64,000 nucleotides of DNA from Escherichia phage vB_EcoS_MM-1, in the sequence record PV577657; one strand, given 5' to 3'. This document shows positions 2,839-48,521 of the stretch, piece after piece (within the stretch, counting starts at the first letter, position 1; each line of letters begins with the position of its first letter). Made by a program: the position numbers and the translations under genes. The notes below the pieces were generated by a model. That model worked only from the letters and a program-made list of their open reading frames with translations, did no database searches and was not told the origin of the DNA.

Positions 2839-2906
2839 TTTTTATTAGCTGAAATTTGTAATCCGGGCTATTAGTGCTCGGATTATTACATAATCTTTTC
2901 AGTCGA

Positions 2907-2960: not shown

Positions 2961-2977
2961 ATGTATTGGAGGTGAGG

Positions 2978-3430
2978 ATGTCATTCACACAGCAAGAACT
3001 TTTAGATAACTTCCGATATGAAGATGGTAAGTTATTTAGAACTACAGGAAGAAATGCAGGGAAAGAATGTTGTGTTTCTACAGGTAACGGATATTATCGT
3101 ATATCTCTAGGGAATAGGACTATGCTTCGGCATAGAGCAATATTTTTAATGCATCATGGATACTTACCTGATTTAGTAGATCATGTGAATACTATAAAAG
3201 GTGATGATCGTATTGAAAATCTTAGAGAGCAGACAGTATCCGGTAATCTAAGAAATATCAAATATAAGAAAGGAATGCATGTTTACCCTTCTGGTAGTAA
3301 GAACTGGCAAGTGGTATTTACTATTAACCGTAAACGTATAGTTAAAGGAACATATGACAACTATGAGGTTGCATGTTCTATGGCCAAGATGTTTAGAGGT
3401 CAATTATACGGTAGGGAATCAATCCAGTAA
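2978..3430 (+). CDS. HNH homing endonuclease
   Basis: RBS GGAGGTGAGG then ATG at 2978; motif HRAIFLMHHGYLPDLVDHVN...DDRIENL typical of phage HNH endonucleases. Confidence 0.8.
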   Translation: MSFTQQELLDNFRYEDGKLFRTTGRNAGKECCVSTGNGYYRISLGNRTMLRHRAIFLMHHGYLPDLVDHVNTIKGDDRIENLREQTVSGNLRNIKYKKGMHVYPSGSKNWQVVFTINRKRIVKGTYDNYEVACSMAKMFRGQLYGRESIQ

Positions 3431-3438
3431 AATTTCAT

Positions 3439-3468
3439 TTGCAAGGGAGTATTATTTTATAGTATAAT
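3439..3468 (+). promoter_or_regulatory. sigma70-type early promoter (T5-like)
   Basis: TTGCAA, 18-nt spacer, TATAAT (3463-3468), then ATTCCCATAAATGAGAGA, resembling the PN25 downstream box. Confidence 0.5.
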
Positions 3469-3965: not shown

Positions 3966-6752
3966 GTGTTCTCAATCCTACAAGGTCATGCAGGATTTCA
4001 TCGCGATTTAGCCACAGGCATTTGGCGAGAAGTTAAAGCAGAAGACTATCTTTTTGCTAAAAGATTTTCCTCAAAGCATCCTGAAGGTAAACCAGCTTCA
4101 ATGCCCTTCAAGTTTGATGTAATTGATGAAGTTGATCCTCAAACCCTAGTAGAAATGCTCCCTCTTATGAGACGTTTAACGTCTGACCCTCATATCGTTG
4201 CGGTACGAGGTCGATGTCTTGCACCCAAAAATAATGTGCGGCGTAAGAAGGGCAACTTTAATGTATCTAACCCAAGTCATATAATTGCAATGGACGTGGA
4301 TGGTATTGTAGATACAGGTGGTTGTAACAAGTTTGATCTTGTTGGCATGGCTCGACATATTATTAGAATGTTAAATAGTATTAGTGAGGATATGTTTCCT
4401 CTTGATGCAGGGTTTATTGCTCATGCATCGTCTTCGGCTGGGCTAAAACCAGGTATCCGAATGCACTTAATACTAGAATCTAATGTTAAAGTAACTCAGG
4501 GTCAAATCAAATTCTTATTTACATCTATCAATGAAAGTAGTAGACAAAAGTATGGCTTTGATATTGCCGACTTAGCTTATTACTCTTCCGTACAGCTCCA
4601 TTATTTTGCAGATCCGTTATTTACCGATGGTATAGTAGATCCGTTTAAGGCGGAGGGTGCTTCACGTCTGGTATTTGTTAAGGGTTCTAAAGTAAACTTA
4701 CCTAATAATCTGGTTGACTATGAAACAACTAGAGGTGAGTTTAAGGAGGAGTTTTACTCTTTACTCGATCAAATTAAAGGTAAAAAAGCTGCCTCCGATA
4801 AAGTAGAGGAAACTATCAGCGAACTAGAAGAAGCTGAGGATGGAGTGTATCTACGTATCATACCTAAACTCTATCACAGAGCTTTAGAGGATGGTGTTGA
4901 TTTTGCATGGCTAGAAAAAGAAATCCGTCCAGCCTTATCAGAATATATTGCAACCAAAGATAATAGTCGTAATATTCAAGATTACTTTAATAACGGTCGT
5001 AAACAGGCTCTGAAAGCATTTGTTAATAATTCTAAACGCGATATACCTGATGTTTTAAAAGGTATTCCACTTAAAAAGCTAGAAACTAACTCTCTAGAAA
5101 CTGATAACTTCTTGAAATTAAATACTGTACCACCAGAAGGTTATATGACTTTTGTAAAAGCAAGTCTAGGTACAGGTAAAACTACGGCGGTTGTGCGTTG
5201 GTTAGATTCAGGAGTTATTAAAGGTAATTTCTTAGCAATTACCAATACTCGAGCACTGGTATCTTCAAATGCTAAGAAATTTAGTGCAGGACAATATGAT
5301 AAGTCTGTAGATATGCTTAATTTTAAGCGTGGTGCTATTGACCGTATGTCCACAACTATTCACTCTTTGCATAAGTTCAAGAGTTTTATTGGTCAAATCG
5401 ATGCAATCTTTATAGATGAATGTGATGCTGTAATGAATGACCTATTATTCGCCCCGGTTGTTAAACAACGTCGTGAATGTATTCAGGTTCTTCGGGATAT
5501 TCTTGCAACTGCAAAAATCATTATATTATCTGATGGGGATATTAGTGCAGAAACAATTGAAGCATATGGTTCTTTAATTGAGTTTGATAAACCGGTTGCA
5601 TTTTATAATCATCACCGAAAAATGCTATCAAAAGCTCATGCCTACGAGTTCCCTGATGAATCCAGTATTTGGGTTGCACTTCAGACTTCTCTAGAGATGG
5701 GTGAGAAATCTATCCTAGTATCTGACTGTGGGCCGGATGAACTGAATGAGAAGGGCATGGCGTTGCGTCGTAATACGGGTGCGTTAGTTAAGGAAATCCA
5801 CTCAAACTCTACGTCTGATGTAGATATTCGACGTATTCTGGATTACACAACTAATGAGTTAATTGACCAACAAATTGATTGCTTATTATGTAGTCCATCC
5901 GTAACGAGTGGTGTTGACTTCAACTATTTTGATAACGTATTCGTTATTACTAGAACCAGTAACCAAGCGCCAAACATGCGTTTTCAAGCAATCAGGCGCG
6001 ACCGTGGTGCTCAGAACATTTATTATTTTATTGATAAATCTACGAGTGGATTCTCCGCAGGCTCTGAACAATATAATATTGATGAAGGTTGGCTGGAGTT
6101 AGCACAGCAATTATACGCACGTCGTAGGGAGCTGGAGTCTAGGAACTATACTAGTACTTTACGTTATTACTTGCTTGATCAGGGTGCAACTATTGATATT
6201 TTCAGTGAAAGCTGGGGAACTATCGAAGGTGCAGGTAAAGAGTATACAGAAGAGCGAATCAAAGCCATTTTGTATTCAACTCCTGATTATTGTGCTCCAC
6301 GCCATGCAGATGCATATGAAGCTAAACTACTTCTTGTTCGCTATTATCATCTTGAGTCTATTAAAGATGTAACAGTTGAGCATGTTGAGCAATACATTAA
6401 GGATAAACCGAATGATCGAGCGGCATTCTTCCATAAAATGCACGAGATGTTCTGGGAAGATATTAAGAAGTGTTCAAATGTCACTATCAAACCATTCATA
6501 GAAGCTCTGAAAGGCAAGAAGAAAGATTTCTTCCTTAAAACAGGTCAGAGTGCTAACCCAAAATATGCCAGAATGTATCTTGGTATGATGGGTATTGGCA
6601 AGGATATGAACACGGAGAATATTGTAGACTGGTACAGAACTTATTGTAAAATCGAGTGTATGCCAATTCCTTTCAAATTCATGACAGAGGAAGAGAAGGC
6701 TATGGCAGAAGAAGTACTGTCCGAACTTGGAGCAACTAATGAAGACGCATAA
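3966..6752 (+). CDS. large replication protein: AEP-primase-like N-domain fused to a P-loop helicase domain (possibly the replication-origin-binding type protein of T5-like phages)
   Basis: In-frame GTG at 3966 with AGGAG at 3954-3958 (track start TTG 3888 is less likely); DxD motif IIAMDVDG, GIRMHLIL, Walker A ASLGTGKTT, Walker B IFIDECD. Confidence 0.6.
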   Translation: MFSILQGHAGFHRDLATGIWREVKAEDYLFAKRFSSKHPEGKPASMPFKFDVIDEVDPQTLVEMLPLMRRLTSDPHIVAVRGRCLAPKNNVRRKKGNFNVSNPSHIIAMDVDGIVDTGGCNKFDLVGMARHIIRMLNSISEDMFPLDAGFIAHASSSAGLKPGIRMHLILESNVKVTQGQIKFLFTSINESSRQKYGFDIADLAYYSSVQLHYFADPLFTDGIVDPFKAEGASRLVFVKGSKVNLPNNLVDYETTRGEFKEEFYSLLDQIKGKKAASDKVEETISELEEAEDGVYLRIIPKLYHRALEDGVDFAWLEKEIRPALSEYIATKDNSRNIQDYFNNGRKQALKAFVNNSKRDIPDVLKGIPLKKLETNSLETDNFLKLNTVPPEGYMTFVKASLGTGKTTAVVRWLDSGVIKGNFLAITNTRALVSSNAKKFSAGQYDKSVDMLNFKRGAIDRMSTTIHSLHKFKSFIGQIDAIFIDECDAVMNDLLFAPVVKQRRECIQVLRDILATAKIIILSDGDISAETIEAYGSLIEFDKPVAFYNHHRKMLSKAHAYEFPDESSIWVALQTSLEMGEKSILVSDCGPDELNEKGMALRRNTGALVKEIHSNSTSDVDIRRILDYTTNELIDQQIDCLLCSPSVTSGVDFNYFDNVFVITRTSNQAPNMRFQAIRRDRGAQNIYYFIDKSTSGFSAGSEQYNIDEGWLELAQQLYARRRELESRNYTSTLRYYLLDQGATIDIFSESWGTIEGAGKEYTEERIKAILYSTPDYCAPRHADAYEAKLLLVRYYHLESIKDVTVEHVEQYIKDKPNDRAAFFHKMHEMFWEDIKKCSNVTIKPFIEALKGKKKDFFLKTGQSANPKYARMYLGMMGIGKDMNTENIVDWYRTYCKIECMPIPFKFMTEEEKAMAEEVLSELGATNEDA

Positions 6753-7257
6753 ACCAATGCCTCCTATGGCATTTATCCTAGAAAAGCTTAGGTATGACGA
6801 AAGTACTGGGGACTTAATTTGGTTATCTGGCCCAAGGAAGGGAAAGGTAGCGGGCTCCAAAATGAAAACTGGGAGACAGCTAGAGTTTATGATAAATGGG
6901 GGGCGGACAGCTTACTTAGCCCATAGAATAATCTGGTTTATAAAGACAGGTGAAGATCCTGGAGATAAAACTATTGACCATAAAGACGGTGATAGTTTAA
7001 ACAACTTGTGGGATAATTTACGTAAGGCTACCTATTCCGAAAATGGAAAGAATAAGAAGTGTTCTACTAATTCTACCGGATTCACTGGAGTTGTAAAACG
7101 AGGTAATAGGTATATGGCCTACGCTTACTGCGATGGAAAGCAACATATTTTTGGTAGACGAGATACCCCGGAAGAAGCCCATCAGCTATACCTTAGGGGA
7201 GTTAAAGAGCTGTTTGGTGAATTTAATCCCTCGGAGAGATATGACAGTGAAGAATAA
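6727..7257 (+). CDS. HNH homing endonuclease
   Basis: AYLAHRIIWFIKTGEDPGDKTIDHKDGDSLNNLWDNL; start overlaps the 3' end of the preceding gene. Confidence 0.8.
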   Translation: MEQLMKTHKPMPPMAFILEKLRYDESTGDLIWLSGPRKGKVAGSKMKTGRQLEFMINGGRTAYLAHRIIWFIKTGEDPGDKTIDHKDGDSLNNLWDNLRKATYSENGKNKKCSTNSTGFTGVVKRGNRYMAYAYCDGKQHIFGRRDTPEEAHQLYLRGVKELFGEFNPSERYDSEE

Positions 7258-10056: not shown

Positions 10057-11028
10057 ATGACCAATGTAAAAGACTTTATTAAACGCTGTCAAGAAGCATA
10101 TTATCAAGGTATGTCTTTAATCTCTGACGAAGAATATGATCGTCTGATTAAAAGATTTCCGTTAGAAGAAGAGATCGGGCCTAAGGGCGATATTCCACAT
10201 CTGTATCGTATGTATTCTTTACAGAAAGTTTATTATAATCGTGGAGATAAACCCCCGTTTAACCCATTAGGTCAGGTAGAAACTGATAAGTTAGATGGTT
10301 GTGCAATTTCTCTGTTATATATTAATGGCGAATTTGTTCAAGCACTAACTCGTGGTAACGGTATTCTAGGGAATGATGTCACAAGCAACGTAAGATTGCT
10401 GAACATCCCTAAAAAGATTTCCCAAAAAGTACCTACTCAAATCACTGGTGAAGTTCTAATTACAAAAGAAGTAGAAAATAAACGTAACTTTGCCTCTGGT
10501 GCTATTAACCTCAAAGATAGTGATGATTTTGTACAACGTATCGGAGAAGGTGGTTTAATCTTCGTTGCATATGGTATCCAGTGTTCTGCTGAATCTGTAG
10601 GTATTACAGAAGCATATTTAAAAGATATGCTTTGGCTGGAGAATGAGAACTTCTTAACAGTTGTTAATGTGCGTTCTTTCTTTAAATGGATTCCGACGGA
10701 CGGTAAAGTTGTTCGTATTAATGATAACAACAAATTCTTCCGTGAAGGCTGGACTAATAAATTCCCTCGTGGAGCATTCGCTATTAAAGAGGATGAAGAA
10801 GGCGAGATTACAACTCTTACTAAAGTTGAATGGCAGGTAGGAGCTTCTGGTAAAGTAACTCCAGTTGGTTATTTCGAACCGGTAATTATTGATGATGCTA
10901 CAATTGTTAAAGCGACTCTTAATAACGTTGATTATATTAACTCTCTTGATCTAGAGATCGGTTGCCAGATTCGAGTGATTCGTGCTGGTGGTGTAATCCC
11001 GTGCATAGTAGAGCGAGTATATGATTAA
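10057..11028 (+). CDS. NAD-dependent DNA ligase, adenylation and OB-fold part (subunit A of a split ligase)
   Basis: KxDG adenylation motif (KLDGCA), TRGNGILGNDVT, OB-fold end IRAGGVIPCIVERV. Confidence 0.85.
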   Translation: MTNVKDFIKRCQEAYYQGMSLISDEEYDRLIKRFPLEEEIGPKGDIPHLYRMYSLQKVYYNRGDKPPFNPLGQVETDKLDGCAISLLYINGEFVQALTRGNGILGNDVTSNVRLLNIPKKISQKVPTQITGEVLITKEVENKRNFASGAINLKDSDDFVQRIGEGGLIFVAYGIQCSAESVGITEAYLKDMLWLENENFLTVVNVRSFFKWIPTDGKVVRINDNNKFFREGWTNKFPRGAFAIKEDEEGEITTLTKVEWQVGASGKVTPVGYFEPVIIDDATIVKATLNNVDYINSLDLEIGCQIRVIRAGGVIPCIVERVYD

Positions 11029-11200: not shown

Positions 11201-11230
11201 ATTTATATAAATTGATAAGGAAGAAATTTG

Positions 11231-12010
11231 ATGAAAATCGAAATTCCAACACAATGTCCCTCTTGTGGTTCTAAGCTAGATCTTGTCAACGGACAATTAT
11301 TTTGTCGGAATAAGTCCAACTGTCCAGCGCAATCAAGTAAGTTAATTGAGAACTTCTGTACAAAAATGAAGTTAAAGGGCTTTGGTCCAAAAACTATTGA
11401 AAAGCTGGAGCTGACGAAGATCTCAGAACTATTTTACCTAACCGAAGAAGATTTGGTTAGAGCCGTGGGTAGCAAGGTTGCCGCTAAGTTAATTAGCGAA
11501 TTAAATACTAAAGTTCGCGGAGACATTGACTTTGGTTCAGTTCTCGGTTCTTTAGGAATCCCTCTAATTGGAGAGGTTGCAGCAAAGAAATTATCCCAAA
11601 ATTGCACTAGCTTCCACGATGTGAAGGCTGACGGCAAGGCTGGAGAAAACTACAAAGCCTGGCTAAATTCCCCGCAAGGCAAGGATGTTATCGAACTACC
11701 GTGGAAATTCTCAACTGGTATTAAGGGCACTAAAGCTGACGTCATCATTACAGATGAATTAGTTGCCCAGCCAAATGGAATCGCGGTATGTATTACCGGA
11801 TCTTTGCAAGATTTTGCAAATCGAACGGATGCAACAAACTATTTAGAAAGTCTAGGGTATACGGTTAAGAAATCCGTTACCAAAGACGTAAAATACCTGA
11901 TCTGTGAGGATGAATCAAAACGTTCTTCCTCATCTTATAAGAAAGCCGAAACGAATGGGATAGAAATCCTGTCGATTAAAGAACTATTGGAGAAAAATAA
12001 TAATGTCTAA
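11231..12010 (+). CDS. NAD-dependent DNA ligase, Zn-finger/HhH/BRCT part (subunit B)
   Basis: CPSCGSKLDLVNGQLFCRNKSNCPAQ matches the LigA zinc finger; BRCT-like C-terminus; RBS AAGGAAG. Confidence 0.85.
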   Translation: MKIEIPTQCPSCGSKLDLVNGQLFCRNKSNCPAQSSKLIENFCTKMKLKGFGPKTIEKLELTKISELFYLTEEDLVRAVGSKVAAKLISELNTKVRGDIDFGSVLGSLGIPLIGEVAAKKLSQNCTSFHDVKADGKAGENYKAWLNSPQGKDVIELPWKFSTGIKGTKADVIITDELVAQPNGIAVCITGSLQDFANRTDATNYLESLGYTVKKSVTKDVKYLICEDESKRSSSSYKKAETNGIEILSIKELLEKNNNV

Positions 12011-12770
12011 ACTGAACTGGAACGTAGAAGGTGTAACCGAGTCTCTGAAAGCAAAAGCCACTGCTCTGGGTGTTTCTGTAATCTCTCAAGAACAAGTAGC
12101 TGCTATCGCTGCTGAACTGGCTGCTGAAACTGGCAAAGATGTTACTGCTCGCTCTGTTGGCTCTAAACTGCGTAAAGAAGGTTTTGAAGTACAGAAAGCT
12201 AACGAAGTACAGAAATCCCCGTGGACTCCTGAGCAGGAAGCTGAACTGGTTGATTTCCTGAACGCTCATGCTGGTCAGTATACCTATGCTGAAATCGCTG
12301 CTGCTGTAGCTGGTGGTCAGTTCGGTGCTAAACAGGTACAGGGTAAGATCCTGAGTCTGGAAATGACCGCTTCTGTTAAACCAACTGAAAAAGCTGCTGC
12401 TGTTCGTTCCTTTACTCCGGATGAAGAAACTGATTTTGTTAATCAGGTTGTTGCTGGTGCTACTATTGAAGCTATCGCTGCTCACTTCGGTCGTAATATC
12501 AAGCAGATCCGTGGTAAAGCTCTGAGCCTGCTTCGTGAAGGTCGTATCGCTGCTATGCCGGTACAGGAAACTTCCAGTGCTAAAACTCGTGAAGATCTGT
12601 TAGAAGGTCTGGATCTGGTTAACATGACTGTTGCTGAGATCGCTGAGAAAACTGGTAAGTCTGAGCGCGGTGTTAAATCTATGCTGTCTCGTCGTGGTCT
12701 GGTTGCTAAGGACTATGATGGTGCCGCTAAGCGTGCTAAACTGGATGCAAAAGCTGCGGCTGCTGAATAA
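12003..12770 (+). CDS. abundant DNA-binding-like protein with three HeH/SAP-like repeats (possibly the D5-type protein)
   Basis: Internal repeats (VTARSVGSKLRKEG / AKQVQGKILSLE / IKQIRGKALSLLREG / ERGVKSMLSRRG); strongly biased GCT/CTG codon usage; size about 28 kDa. Confidence 0.5.
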   Translation: MSKLNWNVEGVTESLKAKATALGVSVISQEQVAAIAAELAAETGKDVTARSVGSKLRKEGFEVQKANEVQKSPWTPEQEAELVDFLNAHAGQYTYAEIAAAVAGGQFGAKQVQGKILSLEMTASVKPTEKAAAVRSFTPDEETDFVNQVVAGATIEAIAAHFGRNIKQIRGKALSLLREGRIAAMPVQETSSAKTREDLLEGLDLVNMTVAEIAEKTGKSERGVKSMLSRRGLVAKDYDGAAKRAKLDAKAAAAE

Positions 12771-12786
12771 TCTGGTAAATTAAACC

Positions 12787-12820
12787 TAAGGGGAGGGGGC
12801 TATGCTCCTTCCCCTTTTTG
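12787..12820 (+). terminator. rho-independent terminator
   Basis: AAGGGGA ... TCCCCTT stem followed by TTTTT. Confidence 0.6.
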
Positions 12821-12852
12821 CATTTAGAAGGCACGAAAGCGTGCAAAGGAGA

Positions 12853-14325
12853 ATGACCTTGTTTAACGTGCAAGCTGTAGTGTTGAAGATGCTTCTAGCT
12901 TCTGAACAGAAGCAAATAGCATTGGAAACATTCTCAAAACTGCATAAAGATCATTTTAATGACGCTTTCTCCTCAATTTACCAAGCCGTCCAGAATTATT
13001 ATAAAAAATATAACACAATGCCGTCCATTGACGCACTGATGCTTGAGGCTAATAGGAACGCCCGCCTTTCTCAAGCTCTAGTCGTTTTAGCTAACACTCA
13101 AATTCCAGAAGTGAGCATGGAACAGGCACTTGAAGTCCTAGAGGCCGAATATACACAGGATTTATTCCTAAAGCTTCTAGAAACAGACGTGCTTCAAGAT
13201 TTAACAATGCTGGATCAGGGAGAAATTCTCAACCGAGTTGCCTCCCTTCACTTAAAATTAGAAGAGAAAGTAACGAATACTGGAAAAGTATTCAACGCAG
13301 ATAACATGCGTATTTTCCAGAGAGAAGAAGATACCAAACTGAACCTAATCGCTCTTGGTATTTGTAATGAGTTCGACGCTCAAATTGGTTTAGCTCGCAC
13401 AGAAACGTTACTGCTTGGTGGTTGGCGTGGTACTGGTAAATCCATTATCTGTTCAAACATACAGGTTCAGCAATATTTGAATGGAGATATTGCTCCATAC
13501 TTCTCAATTGAGATGAAAGAACATGAAGTATTTAGACGTAATCTAGCCATGCTAGCTGGTGTATCAGCACTAGCAATGCGTAATAATACTCTAGAAGGTG
13601 CAGCTCTGTTGAGACTAGCCAGAACTAGAGCTAGGATGTTCAACGGTGGTGAAGAGCTTTTCGATAACTTCGTTAAACAGTATACAATGGCTAAGATGAG
13701 TGATTTCTACGATATGGAGAGTAAGCTAATAGAAGGGTATGAGCTACATACTCCTATGATTATTGTTTATGACCCTGAGTTGTCTATTACAACAGTTGAC
13801 GTAGAATTAAATAAATTAGTTGCTAGATATGGTGATAAAGTTACAGTAGCTCTACTTGACTATATTAACCAAACCCGACTTCCAGACTCTAAAACCATTG
13901 ATATGTATGACTGGAAAGAACAGATGGTTGTTAGCTCGTCTTTCAAATCTATCTGCCAGAAACATAACGTGGCTGGCGTAGCTCCTTACCAGATCGATCA
14001 AGACGGTAGAACACGTATGTCAAAGGGGATTCTTGATTCCGCAGACATGGCTGCTAATCTTAATGCTGCAAAAGCTGATAATGGTCAAGGTGCTATTATG
14101 TTTGACTTCGTTAAGACTCGTTCTTCTGATAGCGTGAAGTTTATGCCTAAAATGAACTGGGAAACTCTGCGAATGGATAACACTACCAACCTAGCAATGG
14201 AAGATATATCTCAAATGGAAGCTGAGTTCGTTATCCCTATTGAGAAGGATAAGCCGGCTCAACCTAAACGTGCTAAGAAAGACAAAGCTGAAAATTCAAC
14301 AGGTGAACAGGCCAGCGATATATGA
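12853..14325 (+). CDS. DnaB/gp4-like replicative helicase (RecA-fold)
   Basis: Walker A GGWRGTGKS; ATG 12853 with AAAGGAGA RBS (track start 12802 lies inside the terminator hairpin). Confidence 0.7.
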   Translation: MTLFNVQAVVLKMLLASEQKQIALETFSKLHKDHFNDAFSSIYQAVQNYYKKYNTMPSIDALMLEANRNARLSQALVVLANTQIPEVSMEQALEVLEAEYTQDLFLKLLETDVLQDLTMLDQGEILNRVASLHLKLEEKVTNTGKVFNADNMRIFQREEDTKLNLIALGICNEFDAQIGLARTETLLLGGWRGTGKSIICSNIQVQQYLNGDIAPYFSIEMKEHEVFRRNLAMLAGVSALAMRNNTLEGAALLRLARTRARMFNGGEELFDNFVKQYTMAKMSDFYDMESKLIEGYELHTPMIIVYDPELSITTVDVELNKLVARYGDKVTVALLDYINQTRLPDSKTIDMYDWKEQMVVSSSFKSICQKHNVAGVAPYQIDQDGRTRMSKGILDSADMAANLNAAKADNGQGAIMFDFVKTRSSDSVKFMPKMNWETLRMDNTTNLAMEDISQMEAEFVIPIEKDKPAQPKRAKKDKAENSTGEQASDI

Positions 14326-14855
14326 TAACACAGGAAAGGCTAAAAGAGTTATTTGATTACTCCCCAGGAACTGGGGAGTTTACTAGAAAAGTATCTAGAG
14401 GTAATCAGAAAGCTGGTAGTATAGCTGGTTCTTTAAGAAAAGATGATTATATATGTATATGGGTAGATGGAAAGCCTTACTATGCGCATCAACTAGCTTT
14501 TCTCTATATGGAAGGTTATTTACCTGAAGAAGTAGACCATATAAACCGTATACGAAGTGATAATCGTTGGGTTAACCTTAAAGATTCTTCTCACCAAGAG
14601 AATAGCAGGAATAAAGCAGCTAAAAGTAAATCAGGGTATATAGGAGTTAGTTGGAATAAACAAAGGCAAAAATGGCAAGTTCAACTAAGAGATACCAATA
14701 AAAAGAAAATATTCGGTGGATATTTTGAGTACCAGAATTTAGAATCAGCAGTAGATAAGATTAATAATCTACGATTACAATTTCATGGGGAAAATGCTAT
14801 TCAAGAAATATTCGACCCGTCTAATTATCCTGCATTAGAGGAGATAAATTCATGA
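14322..14855 (+). CDS. HNH homing endonuclease
   Basis: YAHQLAFLYMEGYLPEEVDHINRIRSDNRWVNL; overlaps both helicase end and primase start. Confidence 0.8.
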   Translation: MITQERLKELFDYSPGTGEFTRKVSRGNQKAGSIAGSLRKDDYICIWVDGKPYYAHQLAFLYMEGYLPEEVDHINRIRSDNRWVNLKDSSHQENSRNKAAKSKSGYIGVSWNKQRQKWQVQLRDTNKKKIFGGYFEYQNLESAVDKINNLRLQFHGENAIQEIFDPSNYPALEEINS

Positions 14856-15742
14856 GTAGAATAACAGAATTACTTGATCTTAAGGGAATTGAGTATAAAG
14901 ATACTGGTGGAGATATTTTAATCTGTTGCTTAAATCCATATCATGATGATAAACACCCAAGTTTGCGTATTGATCCTGAAACCGGGATTATGCACTGCTT
15001 GAGTTGCGGTTTTGGCAAAGGTATACCTAGTATTTATCATTATTTTAATGAGACTCAATATAGACAATCTCCAAGACTATCCCAAGTACGTAAAAAGATT
15101 TCAGAGATTAGAAATGGATCTACGAATCTTGCAATCCCAGAATCTGCCTGCCTTTTCGAAGGTGATTTCCGAGGTATAAGTTCTAAGACCTTGAAGAAAT
15201 ATTTTGCTTTCCAACACCAAGAGAACTGGGAAGGCAGAATTGTATTCCCAATCACAGATGCTGTTGGACGCAATATCCTATTTTTGGGTCGTTCTATAAA
15301 CAGTTCTGCCCCTCCTAAATACTTAGTAAAACCAAAACAGGTTTCACCACCAATTTTCCCTGTACGATATAATACTCCAGTTCTTATTCTAGTTGAAGGT
15401 ATCTTTGATATGCTGAACCTAGAGGATAGTGGTATAGACTATGCTTCTTGCTGCTTTGGTACACATCAGTTTACTTCAGACAACATTGCAGATAAGTTCA
15501 GTCCGTACATTATTGCTGGTGTTAAAGTTGTTGTTATCTTACTAGATAATGATGCTTCTGGTAATAAAGCTGCACAAGCACTGGCCAAGCTAATTCGTAC
15601 AAAAACGCGTTTAACACCTGTAGTTGCTAACTTTCTTCTGCCTGAAGGTAAAGACCCAGGTGACTTAAATAAAGAAGAAATTGATATGTTAGCAAAACGT
15701 ATTGAAATTTTAGTTGCTGAATCGCTTAAAGATTTGGTATAA
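14852..15742 (+). CDS. DnaG-like DNA primase (zinc-binding domain plus Toprim)
   Basis: CCLNPYHDDKHPSLRIDPETGIMHCLSCGFGK zinc-binding motif; Toprim-like LVEGIFD and LLDNDASG. Confidence 0.85.
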   Translation: MSRITELLDLKGIEYKDTGGDILICCLNPYHDDKHPSLRIDPETGIMHCLSCGFGKGIPSIYHYFNETQYRQSPRLSQVRKKISEIRNGSTNLAIPESACLFEGDFRGISSKTLKKYFAFQHQENWEGRIVFPITDAVGRNILFLGRSINSSAPPKYLVKPKQVSPPIFPVRYNTPVLILVEGIFDMLNLEDSGIDYASCCFGTHQFTSDNIADKFSPYIIAGVKVVVILLDNDASGNKAAQALAKLIRTKTRLTPVVANFLLPEGKDPGDLNKEEIDMLAKRIEILVAESLKDLV

Positions 15743-15768
15743 TAGTCCTAAATAACTGAGGAGTTACT

Positions 15769-16098
15769 ATGGAATATGTATATATTTATGCGGATGTTCC
15801 AGTGTATGATAGTATAACACACAAAGAGGTTAAACTAGAGCGGTTTACAACACTGGAGTCCCTTAACAAACGAAAGAATTTCCATTTATTTGGTGATCCT
15901 AAATTACCTGCATCTTATATTTACTTTAAAGTAAAAGATACAGGTCAAGAGGTATACCTAACATATGATTGGGCTGTTGTAGAAAATACTGAGCAATCTA
16001 TGAAAGCGCTAGATGCTTTTCTGCGCATAGATGAAGAATTTCGGGTACTAGAAAAGCAGCGCAATGAAATGCGTAAATTACTTCACACATATAAATAG
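15769..16098 (+). CDS. hypothetical protein
   Basis: ORF track; RBS GAGGAG. Confidence 0.55.
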   Translation: MEYVYIYADVPVYDSITHKEVKLERFTTLESLNKRKNFHLFGDPKLPASYIYFKVKDTGQEVYLTYDWAVVENTEQSMKALDAFLRIDEEFRVLEKQRNEMRKLLHTYK

Positions 16099-16101
16099 TA
16101 T

Positions 16102-16130
16102 TTGCTATTATCCCAATATTTTGATATAAT
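16102..16130 (+). promoter_or_regulatory. sigma70-type early promoter
   Basis: TTGCTA, 17 nt, TATAAT. Confidence 0.6.
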
Positions 16131-16191
16131 ATATTGGTAAGTTAGAGAAGAAACACTGAAGTTATACTTACTTACCAAGAGGAGATTAAAT

Positions 16192-18759
16192 TTGAAAATC
16201 GCAGTAGTTGATAAAGCTCTAAATAACACTCGTTACGATAAACATTTCCAGCTATATGGCGAGGAAGTTGATGTATTTCATATGTGTAACGAGAAGTTAT
16301 CTGGTCGTTTGCTTAAAAAGCACATTACTATTGGAACACCAGAAAACCCATTTGATCCGAATGATTACGATTTTGTTATACTAGTAGGTGCTGAACCTTT
16401 CCTGTATTTCGCAGGTAAGAAAGGCATTGGTGACTATACTGGTAAACGTGTAGAGTATAATGGATATGCTAACTGGATTGCGAGTATCAGCCCAGCCCAG
16501 TTACACTTTAAACCTGAAATGAAACCAGTTTTCGATGCAACAGTAGAAAATATCCACGATATTATCAATGGTCGTGAGAAGGTTGCAAAAGCTGGTGATT
16601 ACCGTCCTATTACTGACCCTGACGAGGCGGAAGAATATATCAAGATGGTGTATAATATGGTTATCGGACCTGTCGCATTCGACTCCGAAACCTCAGCACT
16701 ATACTGTCGAGATGGTTATCTGCTTGGTGTTTCTATGTCTCACCAAGAGTATCAGGGTGTATATATCGATTCTGATTGTCTCACCGAGGTTGCAGTATAT
16801 TATCTCCAGAAAATTCTGGATAGTGAAAACCACACTATTGTTTTTCACAACCTGAAGTTTGATATGCACTTTTATAAGTACCATCTGGGACTTACTTTTG
16901 ATAAAGCGCATAAAGAACGCAGGCTCCATGATACTATGTTGCAGCATTATGTTCTAGATGAACGTCGTGGTACTCATGGCTTGAAATCTCTAGCAATGAA
17001 GTATACCGATATGGGTGACTATGACTTCGAACTAGATAAGTTCAAAGAGGATTACTGCAAAGCACATAAAATCAAGAAAGAAGATTTCACCTATGATTTA
17101 ATTCCGTTTGATATTATGTGGCCTTACGCTGCGAAAGATACCGATGCTACCATACGTTTGCACAACTTCTTCTTACCAAAAATTGAGAAGAATGAAAAAC
17201 TTTGTAGTCTGTATTATGATGTCCTAATGCCTGGTTGTGTATTTCTCCAGCGTGTTGAGGATCGTGGTGTACCTATTTCTATTGATCGTTTAAAAGAAGC
17301 TCAGTACCAGTTAACCCATAATCTGAATAAAGCTCGTGAAAAACTGTATACTTATCCAGAAGTCGTTCAGCTAGAGAAAGATCAGAACGAAGCGTTTAAC
17401 CCAAACTCTGTTAAACAACTCCGTGTTCTTCTGTTTGATTATGTTGGCTTAACTCCAACAGGTAAATTGACGGATACTGGAGCAGATTCTACAGATGCAG
17501 AAGCTCTGAACGAATTGTCTACGCAGCATCCAATTGCTAAGACTCTACTAGAGATTCGTAAGCTAACTAAGCTGATCTCTACTTATGTTGAGAAGATTCT
17601 TCTGAGTATTGATGCAGATGGTTGCATTCGTACTGGTTTCCACGAACATATGACTACTTCTGGTCGTCTGAGTTCTTCCGGTAAACTGAACTTGCAACAG
17701 TTACCTCGTGATGAATCTATTATCAAGGGTTGTGTAGTAGCTCCTCCTGGGTATCGTGTAATCGCATGGGACTTAACAACTGCGGAAGTTTATTATGCTG
17801 CTGTTCTATCTGGTGATAGAAATATGCAACAAGTATTTATCAACATGAGAAATGAACCAGATAAATACCCCGACTTCCACTCTAACATCGCACACATGGT
17901 ATTTAAGCTCCAATGCGAGCCTCGTGATGTTAAAAAGTTATTCCCAGCTCTGCGTCAAGCAGCTAAAGCAATCACCTTTGGTATTCTGTATGGTTCTGGC
18001 CCAGCTAAAGTAGCTCATTCTGTTAACGAAGCTCTTCTGGAACAGGCTGCTAAGACAGGCGAACCGTTTGTAGAGTGTACGGTTGCAGATGCTAAAGAGT
18101 ATATAGAAACTTACTTCGGTCAGTTCCCGCAGCTTAAGCGTTGGATTGATAAGTGCCATGATCAGATCAAGAATCATGGATTTATCTATAGTCACTTTGG
18201 TCGTAAACGTCGTCTGCATAATATCCACTCCGAAGACCGTGGTGTTCAAGGTGAAGAAATCCGTTCTGGATTTAACGCAATCATTCAGTCTGCTTCTTCT
18301 GATAGTCTCCTTTTAGGTGCTGTAGATGCAGATAATGAGATCATTTCTCTTGGCCTAGAACAAGAGATGAAGATTGTTATGCTGGTTCACGACTCCGTAG
18401 TTGCTATTGTTCGTGAGGATTTGATCGACCAATACAATGAAATCCTAATTCGTAATATTCAGAAAGACCGCGGTATTAGTATTCCTGGCTGTCCGATTGG
18501 TATTGATTCAGATTCTGAAGCTGGAGGTTCTCGCGACTACTCTTGTGGTAAGATGAAGAAACAGCACCCATCAATCGCTTGTATTGATGATGATGAATAT
18601 ACTCGTTATGTCAAGGGTGTATTACTTGATGCAGAATTCGAGTATAAGAAACTAGCTGCAATGGATAAAGAGCATCCAGATCATAGCAAATACAAGGATG
18701 ATAAGTTTATTGCTGTATGTAAAGATTTGGATAACGTGAGAAGGATTCTCGGTGCTTGA
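16192..18759 (+). CDS. family-A DNA polymerase with 3'-5' exonuclease domain (T5 D7-D9 type)
   Basis: 855 aa (T5 polymerase size); TTG start after AAGAGGAG; polymerase motifs RRLHD, QLPR, KAITFGILYG, LVHDSV. Confidence 0.9.
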   Translation: MKIAVVDKALNNTRYDKHFQLYGEEVDVFHMCNEKLSGRLLKKHITIGTPENPFDPNDYDFVILVGAEPFLYFAGKKGIGDYTGKRVEYNGYANWIASISPAQLHFKPEMKPVFDATVENIHDIINGREKVAKAGDYRPITDPDEAEEYIKMVYNMVIGPVAFDSETSALYCRDGYLLGVSMSHQEYQGVYIDSDCLTEVAVYYLQKILDSENHTIVFHNLKFDMHFYKYHLGLTFDKAHKERRLHDTMLQHYVLDERRGTHGLKSLAMKYTDMGDYDFELDKFKEDYCKAHKIKKEDFTYDLIPFDIMWPYAAKDTDATIRLHNFFLPKIEKNEKLCSLYYDVLMPGCVFLQRVEDRGVPISIDRLKEAQYQLTHNLNKAREKLYTYPEVVQLEKDQNEAFNPNSVKQLRVLLFDYVGLTPTGKLTDTGADSTDAEALNELSTQHPIAKTLLEIRKLTKLISTYVEKILLSIDADGCIRTGFHEHMTTSGRLSSSGKLNLQQLPRDESIIKGCVVAPPGYRVIAWDLTTAEVYYAAVLSGDRNMQQVFINMRNEPDKYPDFHSNIAHMVFKLQCEPRDVKKLFPALRQAAKAITFGILYGSGPAKVAHSVNEALLEQAAKTGEPFVECTVADAKEYIETYFGQFPQLKRWIDKCHDQIKNHGFIYSHFGRKRRLHNIHSEDRGVQGEEIRSGFNAIIQSASSDSLLLGAVDADNEIISLGLEQEMKIVMLVHDSVVAIVREDLIDQYNEILIRNIQKDRGISIPGCPIGIDSDSEAGGSRDYSCGKMKKQHPSIACIDDDEYTRYVKGVLLDAEFEYKKLAAMDKEHPDHSKYKDDKFIAVCKDLDNVRRILGA

Positions 18760-46870: not shown

Positions 46871-48084
46871 TCTTTATCTCCCTCGGTGGAACCTTGAGGT
46901 CTACCACCTTCTTGACCAGACACACCTGTTGCAGAACCAGCAACGTTAGCAGGAATACGAATCTTATCCATCTGCTCATCATCTAAAGGTTCAAGGTTCA
47001 GCTCTAAACGAGCTTCGTTACCAGTCATAATACCATTATTAACCAATGAGGTTAAATGTTTAGCCTCAGCTTCTTTATCTGGTGTTAATGCAGCTACTTC
47101 CTTAGTATTAGGAGTAATCTTATAACCAAAAAAGAAAGTAAGAGAACTAGTCAGTTTGTTCAGCATAGGAATGATAGTCATGTAATAGAACAGTTCGATA
47201 TTTGGTCGAATGTTCGCGTTATTACCACCATCAAGTAACACTTGCGGAACACCAAAGGCTAGACAGATAGATTTATTAAATCCTTCAATGTCTTCCTTAA
47301 AGTCTAGATCTTTAAAAGAGGATATTTGGGAGTACGGTTTAGCTTTCATACCACCATCTAGAATCAGGACAGAGGACTGACCAGTACTAGGATTATAATC
47401 TAGTTGTAATTCTTCTTGTTTACGCTCACGCAATTTCTTGTTCAGGATTTCATCCGTCTCAAGAATAAGTCCAATCACGGTTCCGTTATCGAGGAATTTC
47501 TCTTTAAAGTTAAGCATCTTAGAACGCTTCTCAAGAGAATCAATAACAGTAGCAACACGAGATTGTCCAGAAATTTGAGAATTTGTGCCACACACGTAAC
47601 TGTTATCCTTTATAAAGATAATCTCATCTACGCGATAGTCTATCTGGTTATTAAATATAAATTTTTTGATAAACTTATTGGCATCTGCCTCTACTTGCAT
47701 TAATGCAGCAGGGACATGGTAAAGTGCTGTGCCATCCCAATAGATGTATGCACAACCTTCAAAAAGTAGGTCAGTGACTACAAGTCTACGGAATGTGCTT
47801 ATATCCATGAATGGATTAGGTCGTACATTTAAGAGAGTGTCTAGAGTCTTTGCCTTGATGCCATTGGCATACGTGACAATATTATATTTATCTCCGACAG
47901 TATAAGAACACTCCGCCGCACTATCTATAACCATATTAGCAGTTCTATTGAGAATCTCAATTTTACTGTAGGCTTGTCCAGTGGTAAAAGGCTTACGGTT
48001 AGTGCGATGACTAACTGGTTCCATGTCTCTTATAATACGTTGACCCGGATTTAGCTTTTCAGTAATCCAGCTTTTAAAACCCAT
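46867..48084 (-). CDS. portal protein (pb7-like)
   Basis: 405 aa, directly downstream of terminase/HNH. Confidence 0.8.
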   Translation of the reverse strand: MGFKSWITEKLNPGQRIIRDMEPVSHRTNRKPFTTGQAYSKIEILNRTANMVIDSAAECSYTVGDKYNIVTYANGIKAKTLDTLLNVRPNPFMDISTFRRLVVTDLLFEGCAYIYWDGTALYHVPAALMQVEADANKFIKKFIFNNQIDYRVDEIIFIKDNSYVCGTNSQISGQSRVATVIDSLEKRSKMLNFKEKFLDNGTVIGLILETDEILNKKLRERKQEELQLDYNPSTGQSSVLILDGGMKAKPYSQISSFKDLDFKEDIEGFNKSICLAFGVPQVLLDGGNNANIRPNIELFYYMTIIPMLNKLTSSLTFFFGYKITPNTKEVAALTPDKEAEAKHLTSLVNNGIMTGNEARLELNLEPLDDEQMDKIRIPANVAGSATGVSGQEGGRPQGSTEGDKE

Positions 48085-48521
48085 TATAAGAACCTTGCGA
48101 ATCCTGATTTTGTTTCAGTCTTGACTTGTGTCTTTTCTTGAGGATTCTGTAATTTGTCTTTCTGCTTTTGAACCCACACTTTTTGCTTATTAGCAGAAAA
48201 TAAAGGAGGTTCTTTTGTGTAAACCTTATGTAATAATTGGTGATGGTGTACACAAAGGGTAACAGTGTCTTCTACTAGCTCATGCCTATATCGATCATAG
48301 AATGCCGTCCTATTTGAAAGGACTATTTCTTCGTCAGTGAAATCCAATTGGAGTTCTTTAGCAAATTTTTTAACTAGTAGAGACACCGTATGGTAATGAT
48401 GAAGCTCTAATTCTTCAGCACAACCGCAGATAGCACATTGAGAGTCTTTTTTATATTGACTTTTTATTCCGTCTCTCATAAGGGATATAGCATCGCGTTT
48501 ATATTTTATATTGCTTGCCAT
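48084..48521 (-). CDS. HNH endonuclease inserted between terminase and portal genes
   Basis: CAICGCAEELELHHYH...CVHHHQLLHK; start taken at MASNIK with GGAGAA RBS (track start 48608). Confidence 0.7.
   Translation of the reverse strand: MASNIKYKRDAISLMRDGIKSQYKKDSQCAICGCAEELELHHYHTVSLLVKKFAKELQLDFTDEEIVLSNRTAFYDRYRHELVEDTVTLCVHHHQLLHKVYTKEPPLFSANKQKVWVQKQKDKLQNPQEKTQVKTETKSGFARFL

What the first reader, a model, noticed from the sequence alone, without database searches (positions are those of the whole stretch)
14322..14855. HNH homing endonuclease wedged between helicase and primase, overlapping both; four freestanding HNH genes in the window
HNH endonuclease genes occur at 2978, 6727, 14322 and 48084 (minus strand). 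The one at 14322 overlaps the stop of the DnaB-like helicase gene and the start of the primase gene; the one at 48084 sits between terminase and portal. These are hallmarks of mobile freestanding homing endonucleases targeting conserved essential genes, and they mark probable recombination hot spots.
Basis: partly seen in the sequence, partly recalled or inferred. Interest (0 to 1): 0.35.

Follow-up and report, generated by a model that had tools for sequence, protein, structure and literature searches.

The report
Mobile HNH endonuclease gene in T5-like phage
The gene wedged between the helicase and primase genes of this T5-like phage is an optional, selfish homing-endonuclease gene (a variant of T5 hegJ) of a kind long known in this phage group, while the supposed fourth copy, between terminase and portal, is a conserved core nicking enzyme and not mobile.

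Summary
The window is a T5-like coliphage (vB_EcoS_MM-2). ORF 14322-14855 is real: 177 aa with an HNH_3 catalytic domain and an AP2-fold DNA-binding domain. Its ATG overlaps the helicase stop and its stop overlaps the primase ATG. Among about 442 T5-like GenBank records with 80-98% identical flanks, only about 71 carry a gene there. The rest have helicase and primase joined at a single ATGA, an exact 530-bp difference.

Two alleles occupy the site: T5 hegJ/P-TflX and the rarer window type, 63-66% identical in protein. Both are under purifying selection. Carrier genomes share synonymous changes in the first ~70-300 nt of primase that no empty-site genome has. Farther out, their closest relatives are empty-site genomes. 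This is the signature of a freestanding homing endonuclease with co-conversion.

The genes at 2978 and 6739 (T5 hegI) are equally patchy. ORF 48084-48521(-) is different: it is present in every listed relative with full coverage and is the orthologue of T5.153, deposited in PDB as "Nicking endonuclease".

T5's nine HNH genes and their patchiness are already published, so interest is low.

The parts
12802..14325 (+). DnaB-like replicative helicase gene (T5 D6 homologue). Its stop codon TGA at 14323-14325 lies inside the ATGA shared with the HNH start.
   Evidence: Pfam DnaB_C E 7.8e-9. Annotated 'DnaB-like replicative helicase' in PV577658.1. 97-100% aa identity across close T5-like loci.
14322..14855 (+). 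Freestanding HNH homing-endonuclease gene, 177 aa, the window-type allele of T5 hegJ (P-TflX). Layout: N-terminal beta-hairpin region, HNH_3 His-Me finger (about residues 55-97; D72 H73 N81 N85 N97), and a C-terminal AP2-fold DNA-binding domain (about residues 105-160).
   Evidence: Pfam HNH_3 E 1.7e-13, AP2 weak. PHROG 99 E 9e-66. Invariant D72/H73/N81/N85/N97 in a 55-sequence alignment. AlphaFold2 model with pLDDT 90.9. Foldseek match of the C-terminal domain to AtERF1 1GCC, TM 0.76 normalised to the target, probability 1.0. Same junction and same length as T5 hegJ, 63-66% aa identity.
14326..14855 (+). The 530-bp segment present here and absent from empty-site relatives. The empty site reads ...GCCAGCGATATATGA|GTAGAATAACAG... 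The insert follows the ATGA and ends in its own ATGA, so a 4-bp repeat flanks it and both gene overlaps are rebuilt.
   Evidence: Junction sequences of 9 occupied and 18 empty loci printed side by side with the window. In GenBank, record spans are 1534 versus 1004 bases.
14838..14843 (+). GAGGAG Shine-Dalgarno-like hexamer inside the 3' end of the HNH gene, 8 nt upstream of the primase ATG. The element carries a ribosome-binding site for the downstream gene.
   Evidence: Read directly from the sequence. Conserved in all occupied loci. The function is inferred.
14852..15742 (+). DNA primase gene (T5 pri homologue).
   Evidence: Pfam Zn_ribbon_DnaG plus Toprim domains; annotation.
14870..15150 (+). 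Tract of clustered, almost entirely synonymous substitutions in the primase 5' end that travels with the HNH gene. It is interpreted as a co-conversion tract. Its length differs between carrier genomes, from about 70 to about 340 nt.
   Evidence: Primase nt 1-100: divergence is 0.9% among empty-site genomes, 10.5% among carriers and 13.3% between the classes, against 3.5% on the helicase side. Window versus an empty-site genome over the first 120 codons: 36 synonymous and 1 non-synonymous codon changes. dS is 1.15 in codons 1-40 versus 0.30 in codons 41-296. Nearest neighbours in this tract are other carriers, whereas outside it they are often empty-site genomes, all four of them for the window in the helicase segment.
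14896..14926 (+). Candidate recognition/immunity region (primase nt 45-75, just upstream of the Cys-Cys codons of the zinc ribbon). It holds the only three positions that separate all carriers from all empty-site genomes: primase nt 51, 66 and 69, which are window 14902, 14917 and 14920.
   Evidence: Haplotype table; three fixed differences in the 3-kb flank alignment. That this is the cleavage or recognition site is inference only.
2978..3430 (+). Second HNH_3 gene, 150 aa, 32% identical to the main one. It lies in an intergenic stretch: 609 bp here replace 99 bp of T5. Absent from T5 and from most relatives.
   Evidence: Pfam HNH_3 E 2.9e-11. 42 of 447 records cover at least 80% of the query. 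Pairwise comparison with T5. Identity matrix.
6739..7257 (+). Third HNH_3 gene, the orthologue of T5 hegI (P-TflIX), 97.7% aa identity. It is inserted at the junction between the origin-binding-protein gene and the T5.110 homologue, with an 8-nt repeat that rebuilds the downstream start codon. Absent from most relatives.
   Evidence: Pfam HNH_3 E 1.4e-12. 23 records cover at least 80%; most have a span of 1017 against 1519. T5 annotation. Identity. Junction versus DT57C.
48084..48521 (-). Not part of the mobile set. This is a conserved 145-aa nuclease gene between the portal and large terminase genes, the orthologue of T5.153 ('Nicking endonuclease' in PDB 9QGV/9QGX).
   Evidence: PDB sequence match at E 1e-80. 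84% aa identity to T5.153. Present in all 516 records with full query coverage, and annotated 'nicking endonuclease' in several. No Pfam hit.

Best explanation
ORF 14322-14855 is a freestanding (intron-less) homing endonuclease gene of the I-HmuI-like HNH_3/AP2 class. It is an allele of phage T5 hegJ (P-TflX).

Shown here:
- It is an optional 530-bp element sitting exactly on the ATGA where the helicase stop and primase start overlap in relatives that lack it.
- It rebuilds both overlaps and carries a GAGGAG ribosome-binding site for primase, so the replication operon stays intact.
- It is kept as a working protein gene.
- It is linked to a block of synonymous changes in the first 70-300 nt of primase, which moves with it across otherwise unrelated genetic backgrounds.

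Inferred:
- During mixed infection the enzyme binds through its AP2-like domain to the HNH-less allele, most likely in the conserved primase 5' region around nt 45-75, about 50-70 bp downstream of the insertion point.
- It nicks or cuts there with the His-Me finger.
- Recombinational repair from the HNH-carrying genome then copies the gene and the adjacent primase 5' sequence into the recipient.
- The synonymous changes (fixed at primase nt 51, 66 and 69) and/or the insertion itself protect the carrier from its own enzyme.

The genes at 2978 and 6739 are separate elements of the same class at other junctions. The gene at 48084-48521(-) is not such an element. It is the group's conserved nicking endonuclease.
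For: Identity:
- HNH_3 E 1.7e-13 and PHROG 99 E 9e-66.
- Invariant D72, H73, N81, N85, N97 across 55 homologues.
- Confident model, pLDDT 90.9, whose C-terminal domain superposes on the AP2/ERF DNA-binding domain 1GCC at TM 0.76 and rmsd 1.9 A.
- HNH_3 with AP2 is the I-HmuI group of homing endonucleases in the His-Me finger classification (PMC5714182).

Optional and precise:
- 71 records cover at least 80% of the junction query. About 442 records have flanks at 80% identity or more. The other rows in the spread sample span 1004 instead of 1534 bases.
- 9 occupied and 19 empty among 28 close IMG/VR loci (10 occupied with the window); more distant Demerecviridae are all empty of it.
- The empty site and both junctions are read base by base.

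Functional gene: dN/dS is 0.03-0.08 within the T5-type allele at dS up to 0.78, and 0.22-0.32 between alleles.

Discordant history:
- Helicase and primase proteins are 95-100% identical where the HNH proteins are 63-66% identical.
- The first 90 nt of the two alleles are identical, then identity falls to 47-77%.

Co-conversion signature:
- A divergence peak only in primase nt 1-300 of carriers.
- The changes are synonymous, with dS 1.15 versus 0.30.
- In primase nt 1-120 the nearest neighbours of carriers are carriers in 8 of 10 cases. In the helicase 3' end and primase nt 401-890 they are often empty-site genomes.
- No empty junction carrying the carrier-type codon 17 was found in IMG/VR, against 18 with the usual codon.

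Hot spot: a distant marine contig has a GIY-YIG gene directly upstream of its primase gene.

Literature: T5 has nine HNH genes, Stitch none and AKFV33 two, and homing endonuclease genes are the main local differences between T5-like genomes (PMC4319617; PMC3326045; PMC10644984).
Against: - No enzymatic activity, cleavage site or preferential inheritance has been shown for hegJ or this allele. 'P-TflX' in the T5 record means putative.
- The fixed differences rest on 10 carrier and 18 empty genomes (the 19th empty locus, L013, was too short on the helicase side to include), which are related to one another. The planned permutation test was lost when the script machine failed.
- The flank pattern could come from ordinary recombination with a divergent donor, without any nuclease.
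- Two carriers (L005, L006) keep the empty-type sequence through primase nt 1-40, so the site cannot be placed firmly, and it might instead span the insertion point.
- Foldseek did not recover I-HmuI or another HNH structure with significance.
- A PDB sequence search found nothing.
Confidence: 0.85

Rival explanations
1. The gene is a passenger cassette. It spreads only by general homologous recombination between co-infecting T5-like phages, helped by the near-identical helicase and primase flanks. Its nuclease plays no part in its own transfer. The protein may serve another purpose, such as attacking competitor or host DNA.
For: T5-like phages recombine readily and are mosaic (PMC10644984; BASEL paper). 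The flank pattern shows linkage, not cleavage. Another T5 HNH protein, HegG, damages host DNA when expressed alone, and the authors state that the role of the nine T5 HNH enzymes in infection is unclear (bioRxiv 10.64898/2026.04.02.716235).
Against: The divergence peak is one-sided and abuts the element, with tract lengths that vary from a common anchor, as expected from repair started near the element. Strong purifying selection on a gene absent from 84% of relatives is hard to explain without a benefit to the element itself. The domain set is that of known homing enzymes.
Confidence: 0.1
2. The gene is ancestral to the group and has been lost many times by precise deletion between the two ATGA repeats. 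Patchiness would then reflect loss, not invasion.
For: A 4-bp direct repeat flanks the 530-bp segment, so precise excision is formally possible.
Against: All more distant Demerecviridae examined (Klebsiella, Pectobacterium, Providencia, Vibrio-type and marine contigs) have helicase directly followed by primase, or other content, and never this gene. No empty-site genome carries the carrier-type primase 5' changes that a deletion would leave behind: 0 of 18. A 4-bp repeat is a very poor substrate for repeated exact deletion.
Confidence: 0.03
3. The gene is a domesticated replication accessory factor that works with the helicase and primase it sits between, or it is the enzyme that makes the T5 genome nicks.
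For: Position inside the replication operon with translational coupling to both neighbours. One GenBank record labels the homologue a 'nicking homing endonuclease'.
Against: It is absent from about 84% of close relatives, which have the same helicase and primase. The nicking endonuclease of T5 is a different, universally conserved protein, T5.153, whose orthologue is at 48084-48521(-).
Confidence: 0.02

Closest known systems
Phage T5 hegJ (T5.120, putative H-N-H endonuclease P-TflX)
   Same: Same junction (D6 helicase stop / primase start), same 534-bp length, and same ATGA overlaps on both sides. The first 34 residues are identical and the C-terminal tail nearly so (last 11 residues differ at 2 positions). 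Same HNH_3 catalytic residues.
   Different: Only 63-66% aa and about 72% nt identity overall, while the flanking genes are about 92% nt and 98-99% aa identical. The difference lies in residues 35-165, which cover the catalytic and AP2-like parts. About 14 GenBank records carry the window type, out of the 71 occupied records. Neither allele has been characterised biochemically.
I-HmuI / I-BasI (Bacillus phage SPO1/Bastille) and T5 F-TflI, F-TflII (HNH homing endonucleases that nick one strand)
   Same: Same His-Me finger group (zf-His_Me_endon/HNH_3) with modular DNA-binding domains (PMC5714182). I-HmuI and I-BasI nick one strand of a long degenerate site (PMC3017599). The F-Tfl enzymes are T5's own experimentally shown site-specific endonucleases (cited).
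   Different: I-HmuI is encoded inside a group I intron and uses NUMOD/HTH modules. The gene here is freestanding and uses an AP2-fold domain. Foldseek did not return 1U3E. Whether the enzyme nicks or makes a double-strand cut is unknown. The F-Tfl genes lie in the tRNA region, outside this window.
T4-type freestanding homing endonucleases (SegB, SegF, SegG, MobE): 'intronless homing' with co-conversion of flanking markers
   Same: A freestanding gene between conserved genes, optional among relatives, and a linked tract of flanking sequence that moves with it. SegB is described in PMC2330249. MobE between nrdA and nrdB is cited in PMC3326045.
   Different: The Seg enzymes are GIY-YIG, and MobE is HNH of another subgroup. 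Cleavage and marker exclusion are demonstrated for those enzymes but not here.
HNH-AP2 endonucleases discussed as the origin of the plant AP2/ERF domain (Magnani et al. 2004; Wessler 2005, cited in PMC5714182)
   Same: HNH catalytic domain followed by an AP2-fold DNA-binding domain. Many database homologues carry both PF13392 and PF00847. Structural match to AtERF1.
   Different: The AP2 part of this protein scores below the Pfam cut-off: 18.8 bits against 33.3. It is recognised mainly by fold.
Phage T5 nicking endonuclease T5.153 (PDB 9QGV, 9QGX). Relevant only to ORF 48084-48521(-).
   Same: 84% aa identity, the same place between the portal and large terminase genes, and the same CxxC...HH...CxxxHH motif.
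   Different: It is unrelated in sequence to the three HNH_3 genes and shows no presence/absence variation. T5 has an extra gene (T5.154) next to it that the window lacks. I found no paper in the library describing the PDB entries.

Membership tests
HNH_3 / I-HmuI-like His-Me finger endonucleases | Sequence match to the family profile above the curated threshold | tested here: met
   PF13392 E 1.7e-13, 50.4 bits against a cut-off of 24.8, covering profile positions 1-46 of 46. PHROG 99 E 9e-66.
HNH_3 / I-HmuI-like His-Me finger endonucleases | Catalytic His (general base) and metal-binding Asn residues on a beta-beta-alpha core | tested here: met
   D72, H73, N81, N85 and N97 are invariant in 55 homologues. 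The model has strands 70-73 and 86-89 followed by helix 91-96. Assigning residues to roles is by analogy, not tested.
HNH_3 / I-HmuI-like His-Me finger endonucleases | Structural similarity to a solved member (I-HmuI, 1U3E) | tested here: inconclusive
   Foldseek against PDB gave no significant HNH hit. The only His-Me finger hit was I-PpoI at E 0.59. A PDB sequence search found nothing.
HNH_3 / I-HmuI-like His-Me finger endonucleases | Separate sequence-specific DNA-binding module (here AP2 fold) | tested here: met
   Foldseek: 1GCC (AtERF1 GCC-box domain) at probability 1.00, TM 0.76 normalised to the target, rmsd 1.9 A over 61 columns; also 5WX9. The Pfam AP2 hit is sub-threshold, 18.8 against 33.3 bits.
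Freestanding homing endonuclease gene (mobile element) | Own ORF between host genes, not inside an intron or intein | tested here: met
   The ORF is bounded by the helicase stop and the primase start. Both neighbours are complete without it in empty-site genomes.
Freestanding homing endonuclease gene (mobile element) | Presence/absence polymorphism at one and the same site among close relatives, with a precise empty site | tested here: met
   71 occupied of about 442 GenBank records. 9 occupied and 19 empty among 28 IMG/VR loci (10 occupied with the window). Exact 530-bp difference at the ATGA.
Freestanding homing endonuclease gene (mobile element) | Distribution and gene history discordant with the flanking genes (horizontal movement) | tested here: met
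   HNH alleles are 63-66% identical where the flanking proteins are 95-100% identical. The nearest neighbours of carriers outside the element are empty-site genomes.
Freestanding homing endonuclease gene (mobile element) | Co-conversion of flanking sequence / target-site changes in carriers | tested here: met
   A one-sided block of synonymous changes in primase nt 1-300, with fixed differences at nt 51, 66 and 69. Whether a nuclease causes the pattern is not shown.
Freestanding homing endonuclease gene (mobile element) | Enzyme cleaves the element-less allele and spares its own genome | not testable with these tools
   Needs purified protein and substrates from empty-site and carrier phages.
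Freestanding homing endonuclease gene (mobile element) | Super-Mendelian inheritance in mixed infection, dependent on catalysis | not testable with these tools
   Needs phage crosses with wild type and an H73A mutant.
Freestanding homing endonuclease gene: applied to ORF 48084-48521(-) | Presence/absence polymorphism among close relatives | tested here: not met
   516 records cover at least 80% of the terminase-ORF-portal query, including Klebsiella and Yersinia phages. No record in the spread sample lacks the ORF.
T5 nicking endonuclease (T5.153): applied to ORF 48084-48521(-) | Sequence orthology and conserved position between the portal and large terminase genes | tested here: met
   PDB 9QGV/9QGX 'Nicking endonuclease' at E 1e-80 over all 145 residues. 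84% identity to T5.153 at the same position.

The most novel reading that the evidence does not exclude
The two alleles at the helicase-primase site are not just drifted copies but competing elements. They share identical ends: the first 90 nt, the conserved tail and the same insertion point. Their catalytic and AP2 DNA-binding core (residues 35-165) has been swapped or has diverged to about 55% identity. On this reading the rarer window-type allele would have a changed recognition specificity that lets it invade genomes already made resistant to the T5-type enzyme. The contested target would be the zinc-ribbon coding region of primase (nt 45-75). That would be a natural example of specificity switching within one homing site.
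Probability: 0.2. Interest if true: 0.4.

Novelty: already known. Interest (0 to 1): 0.18.

Why it matters
It matters little beyond careful annotation. The gene is the counterpart of T5 hegJ, annotated since 2004. The patchy spread of HNH genes among T5-like phages is already noted in the literature. The useful points are practical.

1. Phylogenies or typing schemes for T5-like phages should avoid the first ~300 nt of primase, and likewise the junctions at 2978 and 6739, because they carry element-linked mosaic sequence.
2. The small gene between terminase and portal should be annotated as the conserved nicking endonuclease. The MM-2 record calls it 'hypothetical protein', and it should not be grouped with the homing endonuclease genes.
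3. The empty site, the two alleles and the three fixed primase positions give a ready-made substrate set for anyone who wants to characterise P-TflX. It has never been tested biochemically and could yield a rare-cutting nickase.

Tried and rejected
- A PDB sequence search with the HNH protein found nothing.
- Foldseek with the full-length model recovered the AP2 domain but no significant HNH structure.
- I considered whether this HNH could be the enzyme that makes the T5 genome nicks. I rejected this because a different, universally conserved protein is deposited as the T5 nicking endonuclease.
- I looked for a paper describing PDB 9QGV/9QGX or a T5 nickase gene and found none in the library. 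One search failed on a term that was too short.
- I searched IMG/VR for an empty junction joined to the carrier-type primase codon 17. There were 0 hits against 18 for the control. The 18 control contigs are the empty-site genomes already fetched, so this adds no independent weight.
- The helicase dN/dS value (about 1.0) is an artefact of an out-of-register comparison, because T5 D6 is 5 codons shorter. I ignored it.
- I noticed a resemblance between the HNH N-terminus (MITQERLKELF) and the primase N-terminus (MSRITELLDLK) and considered a duplication of the primase start. I rejected this because the same N-terminal motif occurs in the paralogues at 2978 and 6739 and across the family.
- A label-permutation test of the flank association could not be run because the script machine was lost.
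- The promoter/terminator scan of 11900-16300 gave no terminator-like site and only weak promoter-like matches between the helicase start and the end of primase. This is consistent with one operon but is not informative on its own.
Full report
**What the window is.**
Bases 12800-15800 match Escherichia phage vB_EcoS_MM-2 (PV577658.1; Demerecviridae, Tequintavirus) at 100%. They match 444 T5-like records at 80-98%. Window position equals record position minus 53931. The window matches that record exactly up to 35800. It differs only by a few bases and by about 108 nt of a repeat near 63.6 kb.

**The observation.**
- The ORF listing gives an ORF at 14322-14855 (+), 177 aa.
- ATG 14322-14324 overlaps the helicase stop TGA 14323-14325. 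The stop TGA 14853-14855 overlaps the primase ATG 14852-14854.
- The protein hits Pfam HNH_3 at E 1.7e-13 (50.4 bits, cut-off 24.8), with a weak AP2 hit. It hits PHROG 99 'HNH endonuclease' at E 9e-66.
- The neighbours are a DnaB_C helicase and a Zn-ribbon/Toprim primase.
- The ORFs at 2978-3430 and 6739-7257 are also HNH_3. A tblastn of 120 family members against the window finds only these three loci. They are 24-33% identical to one another.
- The fourth ORF, annotated at 48084-48521 (-), has no Pfam hit. It has a different motif, CxxC...HH...CxxxHH.

**Presence and absence at the helicase-primase junction.**
I used a 1534-nt query made of the gene plus 500 nt on each side.
- It matched 557 records, about 442 of them at 80% identity or more.
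- Only 71 records cover at least 80% of it.
- In the spread sample every other T5-like row covers 66% in two pieces and spans 1004 bases instead of 1534.
- The gene is therefore absent from about 84% of close relatives.
- In IMG/VR, 28 close loci have helicase at 97% aa identity or more and primase at 95% or more. Nine carry an HNH gene and 19 do not; counting the window, 10 of 29 genomes are carriers.
- In all more distant Demerecviridae-like contigs the helicase gene is followed by primase without this gene.

**The empty site.**
- All 18 empty loci printed read ...GCCAGCGATATATGA|GTAGAATAACAGAAC... There the ATGA is both the helicase stop and the primase start.
- In carriers 530 bp follow that ATGA and end in ...GAGGAG(A/T)TAAATTCATGA.
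- The element is thus flanked by a 4-bp repeat. It restores both overlaps and places a GAGGAG 8 nt upstream of the primase ATG.

**Two alleles.**
- Within each type, proteins at this junction are 93-100% identical. Between types they are 63-67% identical.
- One type is T5 hegJ, 'putative H-N-H-endonuclease P-TflX'. It is found in most carriers.
- The other is the window type, which the window shares with NR01, DaisyDussoix, VAH1 and a few others. About 14 GenBank records are at 95% nt identity or more.
- Both types are exactly 177 aa.
- The first 90 nt are identical between types. Identity then drops abruptly to 47-77%.
- A protein search shows a graded series of further alleles (80, 69, 68, 66% and so on) in T5-like genomes. 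It also shows hundreds of more distant HNH_3 proteins, many with a recorded AP2 domain.
- The genes are under purifying selection. dN/dS is 0.03-0.08 within the T5 type at dS up to 0.78, and 0.22-0.32 between types. They are working genes, not decaying remnants.

**Flank signature.**
I removed the element and aligned 1.5 kb on each side.
- The helicase side shows no class difference (between classes 3.5% in the last 100 nt).
- In the first 100 nt of primase, divergence is 0.9% among empty-site genomes, 10.5% among carriers and 13.3% between classes. The excess fades by about nt 300-400.
- The changes are synonymous. Window versus an empty-site genome has 36 synonymous and 1 non-synonymous changed codons in the first 120 codons. 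dS is 1.15 in codons 1-40 against 0.30 in the rest.
- Tract lengths differ between carriers, from about nt 7-69 in T5 to about nt 18-340 in L016.
- Three positions separate all 10 carriers from all 18 empty genomes: primase nt 51, 66 and 69, which are window 14902, 14917 and 14920. They lie just upstream of the Cys-Cys codons of the zinc ribbon.
- In the helicase 3' 900 nt and in primase nt 401-890, the nearest neighbours of carriers are often empty-site genomes. For the window all four nearest in the helicase segment are empty-site genomes, at about 2%.
- In primase nt 1-120, the nearest neighbours of carriers are carriers in 8 of 10 cases.
- The gene and the adjoining primase 5' end therefore move together, independently of the background. 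This is the pattern expected from homing with co-conversion.
- The pattern does not by itself prove nuclease-driven transfer.

**Protein anatomy.**
- A 55-sequence alignment has invariant D72, H73, N81, N85 and N97.
- An AlphaFold2 model built on it is confident, with pLDDT 90.9.
- The model shows an N-terminal beta-hairpin region and a beta-beta-alpha core at residues 70-96.
- It also shows a three-strand-plus-helix domain at residues 109-158.
- Foldseek places that last domain on the AP2/ERF domain of AtERF1: 1GCC, probability 1.0, TM 0.76 normalised to the target, rmsd 1.9 A.
- No HNH structure was recovered with significance.
- In the published classification of the His-Me finger superfamily, HNH_3 belongs with I-HmuI. 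That group consists of homing endonucleases that use NUMOD, HTH or AP2 modules for DNA recognition (PMC5714182).
- I-HmuI and I-BasI nick one strand (PMC3017599). Whether this enzyme nicks or cuts both strands is unknown.

**The other three genes.**
- *Site 2978.* 42 of 447 records cover at least 80% of the query, and most span about 1090 instead of 1601 bases. T5 lacks the gene. In the window 609 bp replace 99 bp of a T5 intergenic stretch.
- *Site 6739.* The protein is 97.7% identical to T5 hegI/P-TflIX. Only 23 records cover at least 80%, and most span 1017 instead of 1519. Against DT57C the element sits on the start codon of the T5.110 homologue, with an 8-nt repeat that rebuilds that start. 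This is the same design as at 14322. Lindwurm carries a different HNH gene one gene further downstream.
- *ORF 48084-48521(-).* 516 records cover at least 80% of the terminase-ORF-portal query, including Klebsiella and Yersinia phages. Proteus and Vibrio records show a gene at the same spot. Several records name it 'nicking endonuclease'. It is 84% identical to T5.153. It matches PDB 9QGV and 9QGX, 'Nicking endonuclease', at E 1e-80. Those chains are T5.153 with the first His of the HH pair changed to Gln or Ala. This is a core gene of the group, not a mobile element.

**What is already known.**
- The T5 record has named hegI and hegJ since 2004.
- Papers state that T5 has nine HNH homing endonuclease genes, Stitch none and AKFV33 two (PMC4319617; PMC3326045).
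- They also state that homing endonuclease genes account for most local differences between T5-like genomes (PMC10644984).
- The BASEL authors avoided such regions when building trees because of gene conversion.
- A 2026 preprint notes that the contribution of the nine T5 HNH enzymes to infection is unclear.
- I found no biochemical study of P-TflX.

**Verdict.**
- The ORF and its overlaps are real, and the gene is an HNH_3/AP2 endonuclease gene.
- It is optional, precisely inserted, selectively maintained, allelically diverse and linked to a one-sided synonymous tract in primase.
- The best explanation is a freestanding homing endonuclease whose target lies in or near the primase 5' end (confidence 0.85 for the class, about 0.5 for the placement of the target).
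- The finding is ordinary for this phage group, and interest is low.

Noticed in passing
window 48084-48521 (-): A 145-aa gene between portal and large terminase is annotated 'hypothetical protein' in PV577658.1. It is the orthologue (84% aa) of T5.153 and matches PDB 9QGV/9QGX 'Nicking endonuclease' at E 1e-80. It is conserved across Demerecviridae. It sits where packaging-associated HNH proteins are often found, next to terminase and portal.
   Followed up: partly
T5 locus L081 5774-6607 (T5.154); GenBank hits H268, H269, H271: Some relatives (T5, vB_Sen_I1, NG_A1, EH7) carry an extra 720-830 bp between the nicking-endonuclease gene and the terminase gene. The window lacks it. In EH7 a 'putative endonuclease' is among the annotated features under the match, so a variable element may use that interval in other genomes.
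   Followed up: no
L059 2264-3025 (IMGVR_UViG_3300048672_000414): A distant marine viral contig has a 253-aa GIY-YIG protein gene directly upstream of its primase gene (Pfam GIY-YIG E 1.3e-4, 22.7 bits, just at the cut-off), in a 1.3-kb helicase-primase gap. A different class of endonuclease gene appears to use the same junction.
   Followed up: partly
window 6739-7257 and L083 (DT57C), L084 (Lindwurm): The hegI-type gene is inserted on the start codon of the downstream small gene (T5.110 homologue), with an 8-nt repeat that rebuilds that start. This mirrors the ATGA design at 14322. Lindwurm has a different 152-aa HNH gene one gene further downstream.
   Followed up: partly
window 2854-3462: The 609 bp holding the HNH gene at 2978 replace 99 bp of T5 that carry an annotated terminator and the start of an annotated promoter. 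This element sits in a regulatory intergenic region rather than on a gene overlap. SUT_E1620 and KKP_3831 have a partly dissimilar segment of equal length at the same place.
   Followed up: no
L016, L017 (HNH proteins at the helicase-primase junction): These T5-type alleles carry the window-type stretch 'VDHINRIRSDN' in the catalytic motif. They also share the window's long primase tract (nt 120-300). This suggests recombination between the two allele types.
   Followed up: no
window 10057-11028 and 11228-12010: The NAD-dependent DNA ligase is encoded as two separate genes about 200 bp apart, as in T5 (ligA, ligB), where two annotated promoters lie between them.
   Followed up: no
window 12788-12816: A strong terminator-like hairpin (13 pairs, 8 G-C, then a T run) lies between the D5-like gene and the helicase gene. 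It covers the helicase ATG at 12802.
   Followed up: no
window 63620-63690: The window differs from PV577658.1 by about 108 extra bases in a repeated stretch inside the right terminal repeat, plus 3 mismatches over 28.5 kb. It is therefore a slightly different version of the same genome.
   Followed up: partly
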